Part shown: positions 768-63,330 of the stretch, piece by piece
Position numbering within the stretch: position 1 is the stretch's first letter
Layout: each line of letters opens with the position of its first letter
Source of the DNA: Eledone cirrhosa
Lineage: Eukaryota
DNA length: 64,000 nucleotides
NCBI GenBank assembly: GCA_964016885.1
Contig: OZ024765.1
Span: 12,152,001 to 12,216,000 of the forward strand
Reading direction: 5' to 3'
The notes under the pieces: generated by a model
Databases searched by the model: none
The model's input: only the letters and a program-made list of their open reading frames with translations
Told to the model about the DNA's origin: nothing
Program-made: the position numbers and the translations under genes

Positions 768-1070
768 CATCATCATTTCATTTTACGTTCGCTTTTTCCC
801 TGCTTGCAAGGGTGGGACGGGAACTGATTCTAGCTTGATTTCTACAGCTGGATGCCCTTCCAAACACCAACCTCATTTACAGTGAGTGCTGGGTGCTTTT
901 TTGCTGTGGCACCTCCACGACCACTTTGCAGTGGAATGATAGGGACCCCAGTCCCTATCATCTCATTTCTACAGCTGAGTAAACTGGAGCAATGTAAAAT
1001 AAAGTGTCTTGCTCAAGGAAACAACACATCACCCGGTCTGAGAATTGAACTCACAACCTTTCGATTGCAA
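768..1070 (-). mobile_element. SINE-A (tRNA head, conserved core, RTE-type tail)
   Basis: Reverse complement of the SINE-A consensus with (ATG)n tail at the left; head truncated at the junction with the adjacent inverted copy. Confidence 0.9.
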
Positions 1071-1394
1071 GTTCAATTCTCAGATCGGGTGATGTGTTGT
1101 TTCCTTGAGCAAGACACTTTATTTCACATTGCTCCAGTTTACTCAGCTGTAGAAATGAGATGATAGGGACTGGGGTCCATATCATTCCACTGCAAAGTGG
1201 TCATGGAGGTGCCACGGCAAAGAAGCACCCATCCCACACTGTAAAGTAGACGTGGAGGCGCCACGGAAAAAAAAAAAAAGCACCCAGCACTCACTGTAAA
1301 TGAGGTTGGTGTTAGGAAGGGCATCCAGCTGTAGAAATCAAGCCAGAACCACTTCCCATCCCACCCTTGCAAGCAGGGAAAAAGCGGACATAAA

Positions 1395-3980: not shown

Positions 3981-3985
3981 AAATG

Positions 3986-4114
3986 TTTAATATAGAAATG
4001 GCTTCTACAGGACTAGAACTGTTTCCTTCAAAAGAAATCATCAGGAAAGACTTTCCTGATGATTTCCTTTGAATGAAACAGTTCTAGTCCTGTAGAAGCC
4101 ATTTCTATATTAAA
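3986..4114. mobile_element. Near-perfect palindrome carrying a hammerhead on each strand
   Basis: Symmetric about 4050 with about 64 bp arms. Followed by a tail (4127-4187) shared with 2290-2347, 24737-24793 and 47403-47463. Confidence 0.9.
4051..4098 (+). ncRNA. Type I hammerhead ribozyme (mirror copy on minus strand, 4002-4049)
   Basis: TTTC-CTGATGA-T TTC CTTT GAA T-GAAA-CAG TTCTAGTC CTG-TA-GAAG; predicted GUA cleavage triplet. Confidence 0.85.
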
Positions 4115-5139
4115 TTTGTTGTATACACTCTACTAATATATTGAGTACCTTACGTACTCTGATTACCCCCGATTGAACCCAGGACTCATAAATATATATA
4201 TATATAGTACTGGATACTAGGGTTAGTAGTTTATGGTTCATATACATATATATATATACATATAGGTGCGTGTATAAAAGTGTAAGGAGCTCAACTGCAA
4301 AAATAACTGTAAAACAGCCGGTTGCTATAATCATTGCAGAGATATTCAGGTAAAATACCGTAGGGCAGAAAAAAGGTCGGTGGAAGCTAATGAATTCAAA
4401 GCCCCTAAAAATGGCAGTGAGCAGTCGTAAGAGAAGAAAAGGTGAAGTTATGAGGGAGAGAAAGAAAAGCAGGCATATATAGAAATAGAAAATGTGTCAT
4501 TACCTCATCAGCATCCCACTATCTGAATGGTTTCGTGTGGTATTGGAAAGACTATTCATTTTTTTTTTTTAAGATAGCTCACTCAGCAGAAACATAAGTA
4601 TATCTGCTAGTATGAATCAATAGCATATGAGAAATAAATCTGCCTGATGTAATTTGATTCAAACCTATTCCTTTGTGGGCGTGGTTATAAGTTGATTGAC
4701 AAGTGAGGTGTGGAGGTACATTAACAGAGGGGAGTTCTTTGATGAAATCAAGTGTGAACTAAGGTAAAAAAATGTAGGGCATCAGATAGGGGAGAAGGTC
4801 AACCTTGACTCAAGGTTACAATCAATTACATGGGGAGAATGAAATTAGGACAGTGAGTGGATCATTAAATAGTTTGGTTTGACCATCTAGATCAGGGGAT
4901 TCAAACATGGGCCCCACAAACTACATTTTTATTGCCTGTGTCAGAACATTTATAATGGAAAATTTGTCACCCCTACATTTTGTATTAATTCACATATCCC
5001 ACTTATTATTATATGCATATTCAAATCCCCCAGGGTTAACTTTGCCTTTCATCCTTACGGGGGTTGATAAAATAAAGTACCAGTAATACACTGAGATAAT
5101 TGCTGACCTTGTGCCAAAAGTAGAAACAATTATTTTAGG

Positions 5140-23433: not shown

Positions 23434-23498
23434 TATTTTATCTGATGAAAGCACACCATAATTTAACCTGGTGTCCTTGAAATATGTATAATGAAATA
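23434..23498 (+). ncRNA. Type I hammerhead ribozyme
   Basis: TATTTTAT-CTGATGA-AAG C ACACCA(taatttaacc)TGGTGT C CTT-GAAA-TATGTA-TA-ATGAAATA. Lies in an approximately 290 bp island between TA tracts. Confidence 0.85.
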
Positions 23499-23540
23499 AA
23501 TATGGTTTTATAAATATAGTTTCCATTTGTTAATATATCG

Positions 23541-23574
<34 letters not shown>

Positions 23575-23697
23575 TTATATATATATATATTATATATATA
23601 TATATTATATATATATATATTATATATATATATATATCATATATATATATATATCATATATATATATATATTATATATATATATATCATATATATAT

Positions 23698-23787
<90 letters not shown>

Positions 23788-23796
23788 TATATATAT

Positions 23797-23858
<62 letters not shown>

Positions 23859-23873
23859 CATATATATATATAT

Positions 23874-23906
<33 letters not shown>

Positions 23907-23914
<8 letters not shown>

Positions 23915-24492
23915 ATACTTTGGGAGGGTTATGTTGCCAATAAGAAACACACGCACCAGTTGCTTTCACTTCAATTTATTATATATTTATATATTTATAA
24001 ATTTACAAATCTACAAACTTATAAATTTCTGGTTGGTTGGTTGGTTCCACAATCAGATAGTTGTTTATATATAGTCATAGTCCTTTCGTCACACACTCTG
24101 TGACCTCTTCAGTGACTGGGGATTCCTTTCTTTGTTTCTGTGCCTTTCCTTTCTTCTGTCCTACGCCATTTTCCAATGAAGGACAGAAGAAAGGAAAGGC
24201 ACAGAAACAAAGAAAGGAATCCCCAGTCACTGAAGAGGTCACAGAGTGTGTGACGAAAGGACTATGACTATATATAAACAACTATCTGGTTGTGGAACCA
24301 ACCAACCAACCAGAAATTTATAAGTTTGTAGATTTGTAAATTTATAAATTTATAAATATATAATAAATTGAAGTGAAAGCAACTGGTGCGTGTGTTTCTT
24401 ATTGGCAACATGACCCTCCCAAAGTATAACAATATCGGTTTCAACACACGATTTCAGATAAAGAATCTTGCTAAACAAATTCAGAAACGAAA
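23907..24492. mobile_element. About 530 bp palindrome (about 256 bp arms, 17 nt spacer) plus about 57 bp one-sided tail, inserted in (TA)n
   Basis: Arms 23907-24162 and 24180-24435 are near-identical reverse complements. The tail 24436-24492 has a relative at 38120-38200. Confidence 0.95.
24225..24269 (+). ncRNA. Type I hammerhead ribozyme (mirror copy on minus strand, 24073-24117)
   Basis: AGTCA-CTGAAGA-G GTCAC(agagtgt)GTGAC-GAAA-G GA C-TA-TGACT; CUA triplet. Confidence 0.88.
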
Positions 24493-24514
24493 TATATATA
24501 TATATATATATATC

Positions 24515-24547
<33 letters not shown>

Positions 24548-24596
24548 ATATTATATATATATTTATATATATATATATATATTATATATATATATC

Positions 24597-24633
<37 letters not shown>

Positions 24634-24690
24634 ATATATTATATATATATATTATATATATATATATATTATATATATATATTATATATA

Positions 24691-24730
<40 letters not shown>

Positions 24731-24803
24731 GTTATTCCGGGTTGAATCGGAGGTAACCACAGTAAGTAAGGTACTCAATACATAGCAGAGTATAACAGTT
24801 TTA

Positions 24804-24924
24804 ATATAGATGAGATTCTACAGGACTAGAACTGTTTCATTCATTAGAAATCATCAGGAATCAGAGATTCCTGATGATTTCTAATGAATGAAACAGTTCT
24901 AGTCCTGTAGAATCTCATCTATAT
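24804..24924. mobile_element. Perfect palindrome with a hammerhead on each strand (same family as 3986-4114)
   Basis: Symmetric about 24864 with a 3 nt spacer; tail at 24737-24793; TA tracts on both sides. Confidence 0.92.
24864..24916 (+). ncRNA. Type I hammerhead ribozyme (mirror copy on minus strand, 24812-24862)
   Basis: GAGATTC-CTGATGA-T TTC TAAT GAA T-GAAA-CAG TTCTAGTC CTG-TA-GAATCTC: perfect 7 bp stem I and 4 bp stem III. Confidence 0.9.
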
Positions 24925-25031
24925 ATATATATATATATATATATAGTAATAATAAATGTGAAGACTAAAAACAAAATTAAGCAGTGATTCTTTGCTTAAA
25001 CTTTAATCTGTTATTTTATCATTATATATAA

Positions 25032-25210: not shown

Positions 25211-25242
<32 letters not shown>

Positions 25243-25245
<3 letters not shown>

Positions 25246-25412
25246 AACGAGTAGGACCCCGACGGCTGAGCTCAAGTCCAGAATTAGCCGTCGAAACGGC
25301 TTGAGCTCAGCCGTCGGGGTCCTACTCGTTCCTATTACCCACTCTACTACCCTAAGTATTGAGAACGTTCGTGCGTTATGGTCCATCTGGTTCCTTACCA
25401 CATTTCCTTCGT
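25243..25412. mobile_element. TA-inserted palindromic mini-element, family P
   Basis: ggaacgagtaggaccccgacggctgagctcaag / cttgagctcagccgtcggggtcctactcgttcc plus tail. Confidence 0.85.
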
Positions 25413-28103: not shown

Positions 28104-28526
28104 AATAGAACAGGTGATTATTTAAATCGTTTTTTAATTTATTTAGAGAATTATTTGATAACCGCTTGCTCCGCTACTTTTTATATACACACATATATAT
28201 ATCTACCTACCCACACATATATATATATATTATTCCATGTAAAAAAAGACAACATATCAAATGATTATCATGCAACCACTTTGATGCCTTTGAAATGCAC
28301 ATAACAGGATTATATATTAAACAGAGGATGTATGCATAAAACCGTCTCTCTACTTTATAATATATAAAAGAAATAGGAATTCGCTTCAAGCATAGCTTCA
28401 TACAATATGTATAAATATTTTGTATCTCCAAAGAAATACGGTTTTAGGAAGCCGTAGCTATCCAAACACCGGGGGGGGGGGGGCTAACGCCCTCTGGTGA
28501 TGTCCAGCAGAAGCAAGGGGGGGACA

Positions 28527-28570
28527 ACCGTCTATGCATTTCAGGCTTAACTGGCCTTCGACAGGACAGT
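28527..28570 (-). ncRNA. Type I hammerhead with variant core CUGUCGA, in inverted repeat 28500-28647
   Basis: Minus strand: ACTGTC-CTGTCGA-AGGC(cagttaa)GCCT-GAAA-TGCA-TA-GACGGT; palindromic stem III ATGCAT. Confidence 0.78.
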
Positions 28571-28704
28571 CCCTCCCACCGCTTGTGAAGGCCAGTTAAG
28601 CCTGAAATGCATAGACGGTTGTCCGCCCCCTTGCTTCTGCTGGACATATATATAAATCATAAAACATGTCTACAGAATCACAATATAAAATATATACTAT
28701 TTCC

Positions 28705-29324: not shown

Positions 29325-31912
29325 CATCATCATCATCATCATCATCATTTTACGTCCGCTTTTCCCTGCTTGCAAGGGTGGGACGGGTCTTATTCAGCAC
29401 AGCATCTCTCCACTCGTCACGGTCCCTCGTCATCTCCACCGTGAGCTTCAATGATCTGAGGTCTGTTCTCACCACCTCCGCCCATGTTTTTCGTGGTCTA
29501 CCTCTACTACGTCTTCCTTCAACTGGCATTTCCTGGCACTTCTTCACCCATCGGTCATCCTCCATGCGCATCACATGTCCATACCACCTCAGTCTCCTCT
29601 CCCGTACACTACATTCTATCCCTCTCAGACACAGTTTCTCTCTCAACACATTTATGCTGGGTCGTTCACGCACATTTACACTGCACATCCAACGGAGCAT
29701 GCTTGCCTCATTTCTCTCCAGCCGTCGCATATCTTCTGCGGTAGCTGCCCATGTCTCACTACCATGCAGCATCGCGCTCCTCACACAGGCATCATACAAC
29801 CGGCCTTTCGTACGCAGGGAGAAACCCTTCTTCGTCAACAGAGGAAGCAGCTCCCTAAACTTCTTCCAACCCGTCCTTATTCTAGATACTATGGCCTCGG
29901 AACACCCTCCTCCCATGCTAATCTGATCTCCTAGGTACCGGAAGTTATCCACCACTTCTATAGCGCCCTCTCGCATTTGAAAAATGTGTCTATCAGTGCG
30001 ACTTCTACTGTCTAATTTCCCTGTACATCTACTGCATACATATTTCTCCCTACCTGTTAGTTTGCCTGCTATCCCGCTACATCTCTTGTGTACCCAGGAC
30101 CTACATTGTGTGCATTTTATAGAATTTATGCCAGTTCCTTTTCTGCATATCGAACATGGCCATTTCCCTGACGGAATCAGGGTTTTGTCCTCTTTTCTAC
30201 TCATCAACACTTTTGTCTTAGCTAGATTTACTCTCAGTCCTCTTGCTTCCAACTGCTGTTTCCATAGCCGGAATTTATTCTCTAGCTCCTCTACTGATTC
30301 TGCCATAAGAGCCAGATCGTCAGCATAGAGAAGTTCCCATGGACAGCCAGTCTTAAACTCCTCTGTTATGGCTTGGAGGACTATAATGAACAAGAGCGGG
30401 CTGAGGACCGAACCCTGATGTACTCCTACTTGTATCTGGAATTCCTCACTAAACTCCATTCCTACCCTGACTTTACTGAGAGTACCTCTGTACAAAGTTT
30501 GCACTGTCCTTACAAGCCATTCCTCAACACCCAGCTTCCTTAGGGACCACCAGATGACAGATCGGGGTACCCTATCAAAGGCCTTCTCTAGGTCAACAAA
30601 GGCCAAGTATAGTGGCTTATTCTTCTCTAAGAACCTCTCTTGCATTTGTCTCACCAAGAAGAGGGCATCTGTTGTACTCTTCCCAGGCACAAAACCAAAC
30701 TGCATCTCATCTAGTTTGACCCTTTCTCTAATTAGTTGTGCTAAAATCCTTTCTGCCACTTTCATAACCTGATCTATCAGTTTTATACCCCTATAATTGC
30801 TCCTCTCCAAAGCATCCCCTTTACCTTTGTAGCAATTTATGAGAATACTGCTGCACCAGTCTTTGGGTATGACACCACCATATATAGCCTGATTGATTAT
30901 GCGTGCAACCAGTTTAGTGCCTACGTCCCCTGATGCCTTCAGCATCTCAGCAACTATTCCCGATGGTCCGGCCGCCTTACCATTTTTCATTTCCCTAATC
31001 GCCTCTTGGACCCTATATTCGTCAATCTCAATAGCTGGTCCCTCTGTCGGATCTACCAAGGGTAATTTCTCTCTCTCCCATTCGTTCTCCACATTCATCA
31101 GTCTCTCATAATGGCATTTCCAGGCCTCCTTTTTCTGGTCATTCGTGACACTAAGTACACCGGCATCATCCCGGACACATTTATCACCAACAACATCCTG
31201 ATTTGCATTGACACACTGCCTTGCAATGTGGAACACCGCACGCCTCTGATCTTCCCGTCGCAGAACATTGGCAAACCTCCTACTCTCTGCCTCCCTGCGT
31301 GCTAAGTACACCTGACGTCTAGCTTCTCTCTTAGTGGCTGTATATTCTTCCCTACTCCCACCCTTATTCCAAGCCTTCCATGCTAGTCTTTTGTCTCTAA
31401 TAGCCTTATCTACACTGCTGTTCCACCACCAGGTCACTCTCTGTCTGGTTGGGGCTCTGCTCCAGCCACAAGTTTCATCAGTAGCCTTCAGCAAGTTGTC
31501 ACGTAAGAACTTCCAGTTATTATCTATGTCATACGTCTCTAAATCGTCTTCTTTTTCGTCATATACATCTTGAAGGGCTTTCCTAAATTTGAATTTTAGT
31601 GAAAGGTCTTTTAGCTTCCAGACCTTTCTTCTCCACACCTTCCTATATGGCTCATTCCATCTCTTGCTTACTGAGATATCACTAACAACTAACCTATGCT
31701 GTGGGGTACATTCTTCCCCAGGGTATGCCTTGGTATTAGACACTATCTGCCTGTCCCGCTGCCTAACTAGCAGGAAGTCAATCTGGCTTATGTGCTCACC
31801 AGATTTGTAGGTTATTAGGTGATTGGCAGGTTTCTGGAAGTTTGTGTTGCAAATAGTCAATGTACTTGCATCACAAAATTCAAGAAGTCTCACTCCTTCT
31901 TCATTTCTTGAA
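29325..31912 (-). mobile_element. RTE-clade LINE (RTE-1), 5' truncated, (ATG)n tail, inserted in a TA-rich satellite
   Basis: Uninterrupted ORF; the stop codon is immediately followed by (ATG)n, so there is essentially no 3'UTR. Confidence 0.97.
29350..31893 (-). CDS. RTE polyprotein fragment: APE endonuclease C-terminus, reverse transcriptase, PHD finger
   Basis: APE motifs SQIDFLL and PQHRLV; RT motifs QFGF, FVDLEKAFD, GVHQGSVLSP, LLYADD; RTE C-terminus RRLRWYGHV..GRPRKTW. The listed start is not the true start. Confidence 0.96.
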   Translation of the reverse strand: MRLLEFCDASTLTICNTNFQKPANHLITYKSGEHISQIDFLLVRQRDRQIVSNTKAYPGEECTPQHRLVVSDISVSKRWNEPYRKVWRRKVWKLKDLSLKFKFRKALQDVYDEKEDDLETYDIDNNWKFLRDNLLKATDETCGWSRAPTRQRVTWWWNSSVDKAIRDKRLAWKAWNKGGSREEYTATKREARRQVYLARREAESRRFANVLRREDQRRAVFHIARQCVNANQDVVGDKCVRDDAGVLSVTNDQKKEAWKCHYERLMNVENEWEREKLPLVDPTEGPAIEIDEYRVQEAIREMKNGKAAGPSGIVAEMLKASGDVGTKLVARIINQAIYGGVIPKDWCSSILINCYKGKGDALERSNYRGIKLIDQVMKVAERILAQLIRERVKLDEMQFGFVPGKSTTDALFLVRQMQERFLEKNKPLYLAFVDLEKAFDRVPRSVIWWSLRKLGVEEWLVRTVQTLYRGTLSKVRVGMEFSEEFQIQVGVHQGSVLSPLLFIIVLQAITEEFKTGCPWELLYADDLALMAESVEELENKFRLWKQQLEARGLRVNLAKTKVLMSRKEDKTLIPSGKWPCSICRKGTGINSIKCTQCRSWVHKRCSGIAGKLTGREKYVCSRCTGKLDSRSRTDRHIFQMREGAIEVVDNFRYLGDQISMGGGCSEAIVSRIRTGWKKFRELLPLLTKKGFSLRTKGRLYDACVRSAMLHGSETWAATAEDMRRLERNEASMLRWMCSVNVRERPSINVLREKLCLRGIECSVRERRLRWYGHVMRMEDDRWVKKCQEMPVEGRRSRGRPRKTWAEVVRTDLRSLKLTVEMTRDRDEWRDAVLNKTRPTLASREKRT

Positions 31913-32120
31913 AATTTATATATATATATACATAATATTTATATATATATATATATAATATTTATATATATATATACATAATATTTATATATATATACAA
32001 TATTTATATATATATATATATAATATTTATATATATATATATATAATATTTATATATATATATATATATTTATATATATAATATTTATATATATATATAT
32101 ATTTATATATATATAATATT

Positions 32121-36951: not shown

Positions 36952-37130
36952 CAAAGGAAATGTGGTAAGGAACTAGATGGACCATAATGCACCAGAGTAC
37001 TCAATACTTAGAGTGGTAGAGTGGGAAATAGGAAAAAGTATGACCCCGACGGCAGAGCTCAAGCCGTTTCGACGGCTATTTCAGAAATAGCCGTCGAAAC
37101 GGCTTGAGCTCTGCCGTCGGGGTCATACTT

Positions 37131-37135
<5 letters not shown>
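36950..37135. mobile_element. TA-inserted palindromic mini-element, family P
   Basis: Perfect arms gaaaaagtatgaccccgacggcagagctcaagccgtttcgacggctatttc / reverse complement, with a 1 nt spacer. Confidence 0.88.
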
Positions 37136-37203
<68 letters not shown>

Positions 37204-37515: not shown

Positions 37516-37700
37516 AGGAAAAGAGTCAAGACGCCAACGGCTGAGCTCCAACCGTTTCGACAGCTAGATCCAAACTCAAAACAGCTGGAGCTCAGCCGTC
37601 GCGGTCCTGACTTTTTTCTATTACCCACTCTACTACCCTAAGTATCAAGTACTCTGGTGCTTTATGGTCTACCTGGAATCTTACCCCACTTTCTTTGTTA
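37516..37700. mobile_element. Family P palindromic mini-element
   Basis: ggaaaagagtcaagacgccaacggctgagctcca...tggagctcagccgtcgcggtcctgactttttt plus tail. Confidence 0.75.
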
Positions 37701-37742: not shown

Positions 37743-38092
37743 TCATCATCATCATCATCATCATCATCATTTTATGTCCGCTTTTCCCTGCTTGCAAGGG
37801 TGGGACGGGAGCTGATTCTGGCTTGATTTCTACAGCTGGATGCCCTTCCTAACACCAACCTCATTTACAGTGAGTGCTGGGTGCTTTTTTTGCCGTGGCA
37901 CCTCCACGACCACTTTACAGTGGAATGATAGGGACTGGGGTCCCTATCACCTCATTTCTACAGCTGAGTAAACTGGAACAATGTGAAATAAAGTGTCTTG
38001 CTCAAGGAAACAACACATCACCCGGTCTGAGAATTGAACTCACAACCTTTCGATTGCAAGGCCAATGCTCTAATCACTAAGCCATATGCCTC
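37743..38092 (-). mobile_element. SINE-A, full length
   Basis: A box, B box, core and RTE tail. Confidence 0.92.
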
Positions 38093-38238
38093 CATTGCTC
38101 TAACCACTAAGACATATATATTTCGTTTTTGAAATTGTTTAGCAATATTTCTTATCTGAAAACGCGTTTTATTGGTAGCATGATACTCCCAAAGTATAAC
38201 ATACATACATACATACATATATATAAATACATATACAT

Positions 38239-42917: not shown

Positions 42918-43108
42918 AACGAAGGAAATGTGGTAAGGAACCAGGTGGACCATAACACACCAAAGTACTCAATACTTAGGGTAGTAGAGTGGGTAATAGG
43001 AACGAGTAAGACCCCAACGGCTGAGCTCAAGCCGTTTCGATGGCTAATTCTGGACTTAGAATTAGCCGCCGAAACGGCTTGAGCTCAGCCGTTGGGGTCC
43101 TACTCGTT

Positions 43109-43111
<3 letters not shown>
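42918..43111. mobile_element. Family P palindromic mini-element
   Basis: Tail plus arms ggaacgagtaagaccccaacggctgagctcaagccgtttcg / cgaaacggcttgagctcagccgttggggtcctactcgttcc. Confidence 0.88.
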
Positions 43112-43175
<64 letters not shown>

Positions 43176-49485: not shown

Positions 49486-49830
49486 AGGCACATGGCTTAG
49501 TGGTTAGAGCATTGGGCTTGCAATCGAAAGGTTGTGAGTTCAATTCTCAGACCGAGTGATCTGTTGTTTCCTTGAGCAAGACACTTTATTTCACATTGCT
49601 CCAGTTTACTCAGCTGTAGAAATGAGATGATAGGGACAGGGGTCCCTATCATTCCACTGCAAAGTGGTCGTGGAGGTGCCACGGCAAAAAAGCACCCAGC
49701 ACTCACTGTAAATGAGGTTGGTGTTAGGAAGGGCATCCAGCTGTAGAAATCAAGCCAGAATCAGTTCCCGTCCCACCCTTGCAAGCAGGGAAAAAGCGGA
49801 CGTAAAATGAAATGATGATGATGAAGATGA
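49483..49830 (+). mobile_element. SINE-A, full length
   Basis: As above. Confidence 0.93.
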
Positions 49831-61702: not shown

Positions 61703-61759
61703 ACTGCCTGAAGAGGTCACAGTCAATGATGGCTGTCACCGAAATATATATATAGCAGT
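61703..61759 (+). ncRNA. Type I hammerhead whose stem III is an (AT)n run, within inverted repeat 61585-61810
   Basis: ACTGC-CTGAAGA-GGT C ACAGTC(aatgat)GGCTGT C ACC-GAAA-TATATATA-TA-GCAGT; perfect 63 bp arms 61585-61647 / 61748-61810. Confidence 0.9.

Positions 61760-62889: not shown

Positions 62890-63330
<441 letters not shown>

What the first reader, a model, noticed from the sequence alone, without database searches (positions are those of the whole stretch)
23907..24492. Very young 530 bp palindrome with two divergently oriented hammerheads
About 256 bp arms with only a few mismatches, a 17 nt spacer, hammerheads at 24073-24117(-) and 24225-24269(+), a tail on one side and long TA tracts on both. 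It is the largest and best probe for finding the autonomous parent, and a likely cruciform-forming site. A rearranged relative of its end lies at 38120-38200.
Basis: partly seen in the sequence, partly recalled or inferred. Interest (0 to 1): 0.7.

Follow-up and report, generated by a model that had tools for sequence, protein, structure and literature searches.

The report
Head-to-head Penelope retroelement end insertion
This mirror-image stretch is a single insertion of two short copies of the end of a very abundant Penelope-type jumping gene, placed back to back in a TA repeat, each with a hammerhead RNA motif that is probably silent here; it is ordinary in kind, though the family's near-strict one-long-end, one-short-end rule hints at how such insertions are likely made.

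Summary
The palindrome is real: arms 23907-24162 and 24180-24435, 3 mismatches, a minimal type I hammerhead in each, a 57-nt tail on the right. It is a one-off insertion of a Penelope-like element (PLE): the centre junction occurs once in the genome, the hammerhead 3,117 times and the end 18,831 times. [quoted passage not shown] Inverted copies, tails and opposed hammerheads are all published. Family data add: 67 of 69 two-armed insertions have one short and one tailed end, either arm can be longer, and 5' ends pile up at a YY1-like motif, where both arms here stop, not at the ribozyme cut. This favours priming from both target strands (inferred). The copy is of average age for the family, not very young. 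38120-38200 is a minimal older insertion of the same kind. No spanning reads were found. The scan noted such palindromes and the end rule before on other DNA. New member of a known kind; low interest.

The parts
23540..23906 (.). left (TA)n target tract with ATC/ATT interruptions
   Evidence: sequence
23907..24172 (-). left arm: 5'-truncated PLE end, short outer end (no tail), positions 0 to -257 of the parent; its copy of the start codon is mutated
24073..24117 (-). minimal type I hammerhead motif, predicted cut after 24078
24163..24179 (.). centre: 10 nt of parent with the YY1-like motif on the minus strand, 2 extra C, and a small hairpin (24167-24178, loop 24171-24174); single copy in the genome
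24180..24435 (+). right arm: 5'-truncated PLE end, positions -247 to 0
24225..24269 (+). minimal type I hammerhead motif, predicted cut after 24264
24410..24493 (+). first 28 codons of the parent ORF
   Evidence: read-through into the ORF in tandem copies
24436..24492 (+). 57-nt tail (long outer end)
24493..24730 (.). right (TA)n target tract
   Evidence: sequence
38113..38201 (.). older minimal two-armed insertion of the same family: tail-only arm on minus, about 35-nt short-ended arm on plus

Best explanation
This is a single, non-coding insertion of two 5'-truncated ends of an abundant endonuclease-bearing Penelope-like retroelement, joined head to head in a (TA)n tract, and it was likely made when the element's enzyme primed reverse transcription from both strands of the cut target. 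Shown: the parent family, its ORF, the two fixed outer ends 57 nt apart, the TA target, and that this junction is unique. Inferred: a dimeric RT-nuclease nicks both strands of (TA)n; one strand primes at the short site, the other at the tail site, each helped by an ATAT match to the target; both cDNAs ran through the uncut hammerhead and stopped at the -250 to -275 hotspot, possibly the 5' end of the RNA; their ends were then joined. The two hammerheads are passengers on opposite strands and would likely be buried in a 256-bp hairpin in any read-through RNA. Confidence about 0.95 for what it is, about 0.5 for the two-primer route.
For: Identity: 3,117 exact hammerheads, 18,831 exact ends, 1 exact junction; walking upstream gives RT (YVDD) plus GIY-YIG in 4.1-4.3 kb tandem units; 109 homologues among 5,491 candidates, best 69% from Octopus vulgaris. 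Ends: 85 of 89 sampled ends stop at one of two sites and 4 read on into the ORF; genome-wide 13,874 short ends and 14,569 tail ends abut TA. Pairing: 45 of 49 opposed pairs within 6 kb are mixed by listing alone, 67 of 69 by hand. Either arm may reach further (33 short, 17 tail, 11 level, of 61). Arms of one insertion are closer to each other than their median distance to other insertions in 35 of 36 scored pairs. 5' ends: 12 of 68 at risk stop in -275..-250 against a background hazard of 0.047, but only 4 of 85 in the bin of the ribozyme cut. In vitro, an anole PLE cuts and extends both strands, starts at two sites that bound the tail, uses uncut RNA and is predicted to be a dimer (PMC11167929, parts 1-2 of 4 read). 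Head-to-head joints also appear in contigs of public runs.
Against: The in vitro paper found no strand preference between the two start sites and no homology to the target, which alone would not give a strict rule. The small hairpin at this centre and the excess of level-ended pairs (11 of 61 against 3.1 shuffled) also fit fold-back. No pile-up of tail-only arms at the short site, as a collision of two primers on one RNA would give (3 of 79). No consistent cap-derived G at the hotspot. The hotspot bin was chosen after seeing the data. About half of ends are not in opposed pairs (48 of 100 listed ends paired within 6 kb). Two insertions have two tails (L112, L174). No RNA data; the exact junction was not seen in the two runs that covered the stretch.
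Confidence: 0.8

Rival explanations
1. Same parent, but one cDNA folded back and copied itself (or self-primed on an antisense template), and the nuclease resolved the hairpin with a 57-nt stagger, leaving the tail on one side.
For: Proposed for rotifer PLEs from palindromes at inverted junctions (PMC3846280, Discussion) and for the tail (PMC8557442 passage). Gives the one-tail rule directly. The centre here is a hairpin with a 4-nt loop; level-ended pairs are in excess; arms share a source.
Against: Simple fold-back from the tailed end needs the tail arm to be the longer, but the short arm reaches further in 33 of 61 pairs, often by hundreds of bases, and a short arm cannot template a tail. 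Tail-only partners exist.
Confidence: 0.3
2. The palindrome is itself a mobile non-autonomous unit (MITE-like or foldback element).
For: Long terminal inverted repeats, TA flanks, many similar-sized palindromes.
Against: The junction is single-copy; the other palindromes shown each have their own junction and arm lengths; arms are collinear pieces of the PLE.
Confidence: 0.02
3. An assembly or library fold-back artefact.
For: The exact junction was not seen in the runs laid; palindromes in TA tracts are hard to assemble.
Against: Arms differ at 3 sites, two of them rare in the family; only one arm has the tail; flanks are not mirrored; the pattern recurs in dozens of loci and as joints in contigs of public runs.
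Confidence: 0.03
4. A selected, functional device (bidirectional ribozyme terminator or hairpin RNA source).
For: Both hammerhead cores are intact; a read-through RNA would form a long hairpin.
Against: Intact cores are expected at 1.2% divergence; minimal PLE hammerheads showed no activity as monomers (PMC4209133); nothing marks this copy out from its family.
Confidence: 0.04

Closest known systems
EN+ Penelope-like insertions with an inverted 5'-truncated copy and an optional tail (PMC8557442 passages; PMC3846280 passages and Discussion)
   Same: Head-to-head inverted ends, tail at one end, pLTR holding the ORF start, partial tandems, (TA)n target, low-complexity Asn/Thr-rich stretch in the ORF.
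   Different: Tail is 57 nt rather than 30-40; here the one-tail rule is counted (67 of 69) and a 5' stop hotspot is seen; copy number is far above the rotifer families.
Nematis clade of PLEs (PMC8557442, supplement part 54 of 59)
   Same: C-terminal GIY-YIG with CCHH motif and a short linker, Cx4CxxCx7C, the same spacing as Nematis_C4; Neptune linkers shown are about 25 residues longer or shorter-spaced differently (long insert between CxxC and the next Cys).
   Different: No RT tree with named references was built, so clade membership rests on motif spacing; ORF is longer (about 3.9 kb).
Minimal hammerheads of metazoan PLEs (PMC4209133, parts 1-2 of 4)
   Same: Short helix I, long helix II, one base between positions 9 and 10.1, G10.1-C11.1, vestigial helix III; pairs on opposite strands 100-700 bp apart were already reported in Schistosoma.
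   Different: Loop 3 is GA, not strictly palindromic (a dimer would need tandem G-A pairs; inferred); triplet CUA or CUU.
Poseidon element PAc of Anolis carolinensis (PMC11167929, parts 1-2 of 4)
   Same: Two start sites inside the ORF start that bound the tail; AT-rich target; hammerhead cutting not needed for insertion.
   Different: Here both ends coincide with ATAT, matching the target; the hammerhead lies upstream of the start codon; genomic pairs use the two sites in a near-strict mixed fashion.
L1 twin priming (recalled, not read)
   Same: Both target strands prime, giving an inverted segment.
   Different: L1 arms cover different parts of the RNA; here both arms cover the same part.

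Membership tests
EN+ Penelope-like element | Single ORF with RT followed by C-terminal GIY-YIG nuclease in the parent | tested here: met
   Pfam RVT_1 weak on the parent (E 0.00095, below cut-off), GIY-YIG above cut-off on homologue P0061. No single unbroken full-length copy was among the loci read.
EN+ Penelope-like element | CCHH motif with two Cys inside the GIY-YIG core | tested here: met
EN+ Penelope-like element | Partial tandems forming pLTRs that include the ORF start | tested here: met
   L031, L035, L041, L140
EN+ Penelope-like element | Inverted 5'-truncated copy and tail at one end | tested here: met
EN+ Penelope-like element | Hammerhead motif in the pLTR | tested here: met
EN+ Penelope-like element | Target-site duplication | not testable with these tools
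   Both flanks are TA repeats and no empty site was available
Nematis clade | Short Cx2-5CxxC linker before the nuclease | tested here: met
   against supplement alignment
Nematis clade | RT phylogeny groups with Nematis | not tested
   No named reference sequences were held
Neptune clade | Long linker between CxxC and the pre-GIY Cys | tested here: not met
   7 residues here; much longer in the four Neptune rows
Naiad, Hydra, Penelope/Poseidon clades | N-terminal nuclease (Naiad); no CCHH (Hydra); no linker zinc finger (Penelope/Poseidon) | tested here: not met
Minimal PLE hammerhead | Conserved core, extra base at 9/10.1, G10.1-C11.1, vestigial helix III | tested here: met
   core CUGAAGA in 119 and GAAA in 123 of 125 sampled copies (sample partly chosen for the motif, some loci counted twice)
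Minimal PLE hammerhead | Self-cleavage as a dimer | not testable with these tools
   Needs an assay; no excess of copies begins at the cut site
MITE / foldback DNA transposon | The same TIR-bounded unit repeated at many loci | tested here: not met
   Junction single-copy

The most novel reading that the evidence does not exclude
PLE insertion is an obligately asymmetric twin-priming reaction: one enzyme dimer primes both strands of a cut (TA)n, always using the two start sites once each, on uncut RNA that begins at a YY1-type promoter motif about 260 nt upstream, so palindromes of this exact size are paired run-off cDNAs that map the element's transcription start.
Probability: 0.3. Interest if true: 0.55.

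Novelty: new member of a known kind. Interest (0 to 1): 0.25.

Why it matters
As a locus it matters little: one of thousands of similar insertions. As a family it gives numbers for an open question, how PLEs make inverted copies and tails: about 14,000 ends of each type, a 67 of 69 mixed-end rule and a 5' stop hotspot. These predict outcomes for the existing in vitro PLE system, and give annotators a rule for recognising such palindromes as PLE footprints rather than MITEs.

Tried and rejected
DNA search of the genome with the right arm gave nothing because common words are skipped; tight patterns worked. Rfam did not find the hammerheads; free-energy folding of the 71-nt motif recovered helix II only, z -0.5. 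MITE reading rejected. Hammerhead cut site as a 5' boundary of copies: not supported, 4 of 85. Collision of two primers at the short site: not supported, 3 of 79 in the 0..+10 bin, like its neighbours. Cap-derived G at the hotspot: seen in 2 junctions (this one and L034) of about 25, not a rule. Two different parents for the two arms: not supported in general (35 of 36) and undecidable for this copy (15% of outside comparisons are as close). Presence/absence test: no RNA holder listed; only 24110-24300 was laid on 4 of 24 listed runs; two (one sample) covered it and showed other joints but not this one, two laid nothing; this is no evidence of absence. Rows left out of the pair count: insertions with an unseen outer end or arms not directly joined (L035, L044/45, L128, L158, L166, L169, L190, L191, L193, first insertion of L082) and most loci chosen for having the hammerhead. 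Of the 4 unmixed pairs, two are true tail/tail (L112, L174) and two are separate insertions (L170, L190). Literature searches listed no paper on this family, on a counted one-tail rule or on twin priming in PLEs; the library lacks most subscription papers, including the 2004-2006 PLE papers, and Repbase was not available; supplements of the preprint and of the octopus repeat paper were not seen.

Full report
Observation. The repeat finder and a base-by-base comparison give arms at 23907-24162 and 24180-24435, 256 nt, 3 mismatches, 17 nt apart. A motif scan finds the type I hammerhead at 24225-24269 (+) and its mirror at 24117-24073 (-). A 57-nt tail follows the right arm and TA tracts flank both sides. 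The feature is real and far beyond chance (fold z about -52).

Copy number. The 46-nt hammerhead has 3,117 exact copies in the 3.0 Gb genome, the 42-nt end 18,831, and the controls read backwards 0. The 36-nt centre junction occurs once. So the arm is a family and the palindrome a single event.

Parent. Longer copies lead to tandem units of 4.1-4.3 kb. [quoted passage not shown] The best homologue is an Octopus vulgaris protein at 69%; the host is therefore probably an octopod (inference). The linker spacing equals that of Nematis_C4 and is much shorter than the Neptune rows in the supplement of PMC8557442; Naiad, Hydra and Penelope/Poseidon are excluded by domain order or motifs. No tree was built. 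The ATG at 24410 opens the ORF and the tail is its codons 9-28; the left arm's ATG is mutated.

Outer ends. Of 89 sampled ends, 46 stop at the short site (window 24435), 39 at the tail site (24492) and 4 read on into the ORF (my script mislabelled the short class as 'other', the printed rows show TA after each). Genome-wide, 13,874 short ends and 14,569 tail ends run into TA. Both sites coincide with ATAT in the parent, which matches the target.

Pairing. Of 28 neighbouring ends within 6 kb, 24 are head to head. Merging the first listings of the two end types, 45 of 49 opposed pairs are mixed (p 4e-10); on inspection two exceptions are separate insertions and two are true tail/tail. A hand count of directly joined insertions gives 67 mixed, 2 tail/tail and 0 short/short of 69. 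The short arm reaches further in 33, the tail arm in 17, and 11 are level, of 61 measured. Arms of one insertion resemble each other more than other insertions in 35 of 36 scored pairs, of 47 entered; in L033 and L044/L045 both arms share the same ORF break. One-armed copies are also common: of 33 such junctions read, 2 hid a tail-only partner and the rest join TA or other DNA.

5' ends. In 108 arms chosen only for their 3' end, 12 of 68 at risk stop between -275 and -250, against a background hazard of 0.047 per 25 nt (p 7e-5, bin chosen after the fact), none in the bin before; only 4 of 85 stop in the bin of the ribozyme cut. The junctions are real breaks. The hotspot holds CAAAATGGCG or CAAGATGGCG; the L1 YY1 site is CAAGATGGCCG (PMC10619931 passage, which cites it as needed for accurate L1 initiation). 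Both arms of the window copy stop here (-257 and about -255, with a small change in the right arm), leaving a hairpin with a 4-nt loop. That this is the RNA's 5' end is inferred (about 40%); stalling is the alternative, and a cap-derived G is not general.

Mechanism. I favour priming from both strands of the cut (TA)n, one at each start site, on uncut RNA, followed by joining of the cDNA ends (about 0.5). It fits either arm being longer, tail-only partners, and the anole PLE, which cuts and extends both strands and starts at two sites bounding the tail (PMC11167929). Fold-back with staggered resolution (PMC3846280 Discussion; PMC8557442 passage) explains the rule and the level-ended pairs but not the many longer short arms (about 0.3). 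A predicted collision signature for two primers on one RNA was absent. The hammerheads match the minimal PLE type, inactive as monomers in vitro, and opposed pairs were already reported (PMC4209133); on opposite strands they cannot dimerise in cis and would likely be sequestered.

Age and reality. Arm divergence is 1.2%, near the family median of 1.4%. With the calibration in PMC13282606 (passages; 0.09 = 25 My, another species) that is roughly 1-2 My, a loose inference. Contigs of two public runs from one sample show other left-to-right joints but not this one; two further runs laid nothing. The locus is thus not confirmed by reads, but asymmetry, private mismatches and recurrence argue against an artefact.

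The 38120 relative. A tail-only arm (minus, +8 to +57, 84%) joined to a short-ended arm of about 35 nt: the smallest form of the same product.

Known or new. Inverted copies, tails at one end, TA targeting and opposed minimal hammerheads are published. The preprint 10.64898/2026.07.22.740005 (passages) does not mention octopus or tails. My searches listed no paper with a counted one-tail rule or the 5' hotspot, within a library that lacks older subscription papers. Earlier notes of this scan report like palindromes and the end rule on other DNA; I had noted the rule before looking, and those notes are not independent support. Verdict: new member of a known kind, interest 0.25; most novel reading probability 0.3, interest 0.55.

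Noticed in passing
window 23434-23498 (+): A different hammerhead (long helix I, CUGAUGA) in an element that ends in the same TA tract just left of the palindrome; a similar end sits beside a family copy in L062.
   Followed up: partly
window 24799-24929 and 3981-4119: Two small palindromes of another family, each with a canonical-looking hammerhead (24864-24916 on +, GUA triplet, read by eye); probably two-armed ends of a second PLE or retrozyme family.
   Followed up: partly
window 61703-61759 (+): Hammerhead with the same CUGAAGA-G-GUCAC start but a longer helix II and a TA-rich helix III.
   Followed up: no
window 25241-25335, 37026-37140, 37524-37612, 42996-43113, 28511-28635: Short palindromic repeats in TA tracts, the first four related, without a hammerhead hit in my scan.
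   Followed up: no
window 872-1249: Inverted pair with 179-nt arms of a repeat that also lies at about 37980-38080 and resembles the tRNA-like heads at 49493-49550 and 62999-63056; probably a SINE.
   Followed up: no
window 29350-31938 (-): Open 862-codon frame of a non-LTR retrotransposon, RTE-like by recalled motifs.
   Followed up: no
L155:208-906 (also L119): A tail arm runs to -265, the hotspot, then continues from about 190 nt inside the ORF start of another unit: looks like a template jump at an RNA end.
   Followed up: partly
L044/L045: Two near-full-length opposed arms with the same frameshift, separated by about 3.9 kb of other DNA.
   Followed up: no
L035, L038, L041: The parent ORF has a variable Asn/Thr-rich repeat stretch before the RT, recalling the N-rich inserts of rotifer PLEs.
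   Followed up: no
sampled loci L001-L140: At least two subfamilies differ in helix III and triplet (GGAC-UA against GAAC-UU) and in the YY1-like motif.
   Followed up: partly
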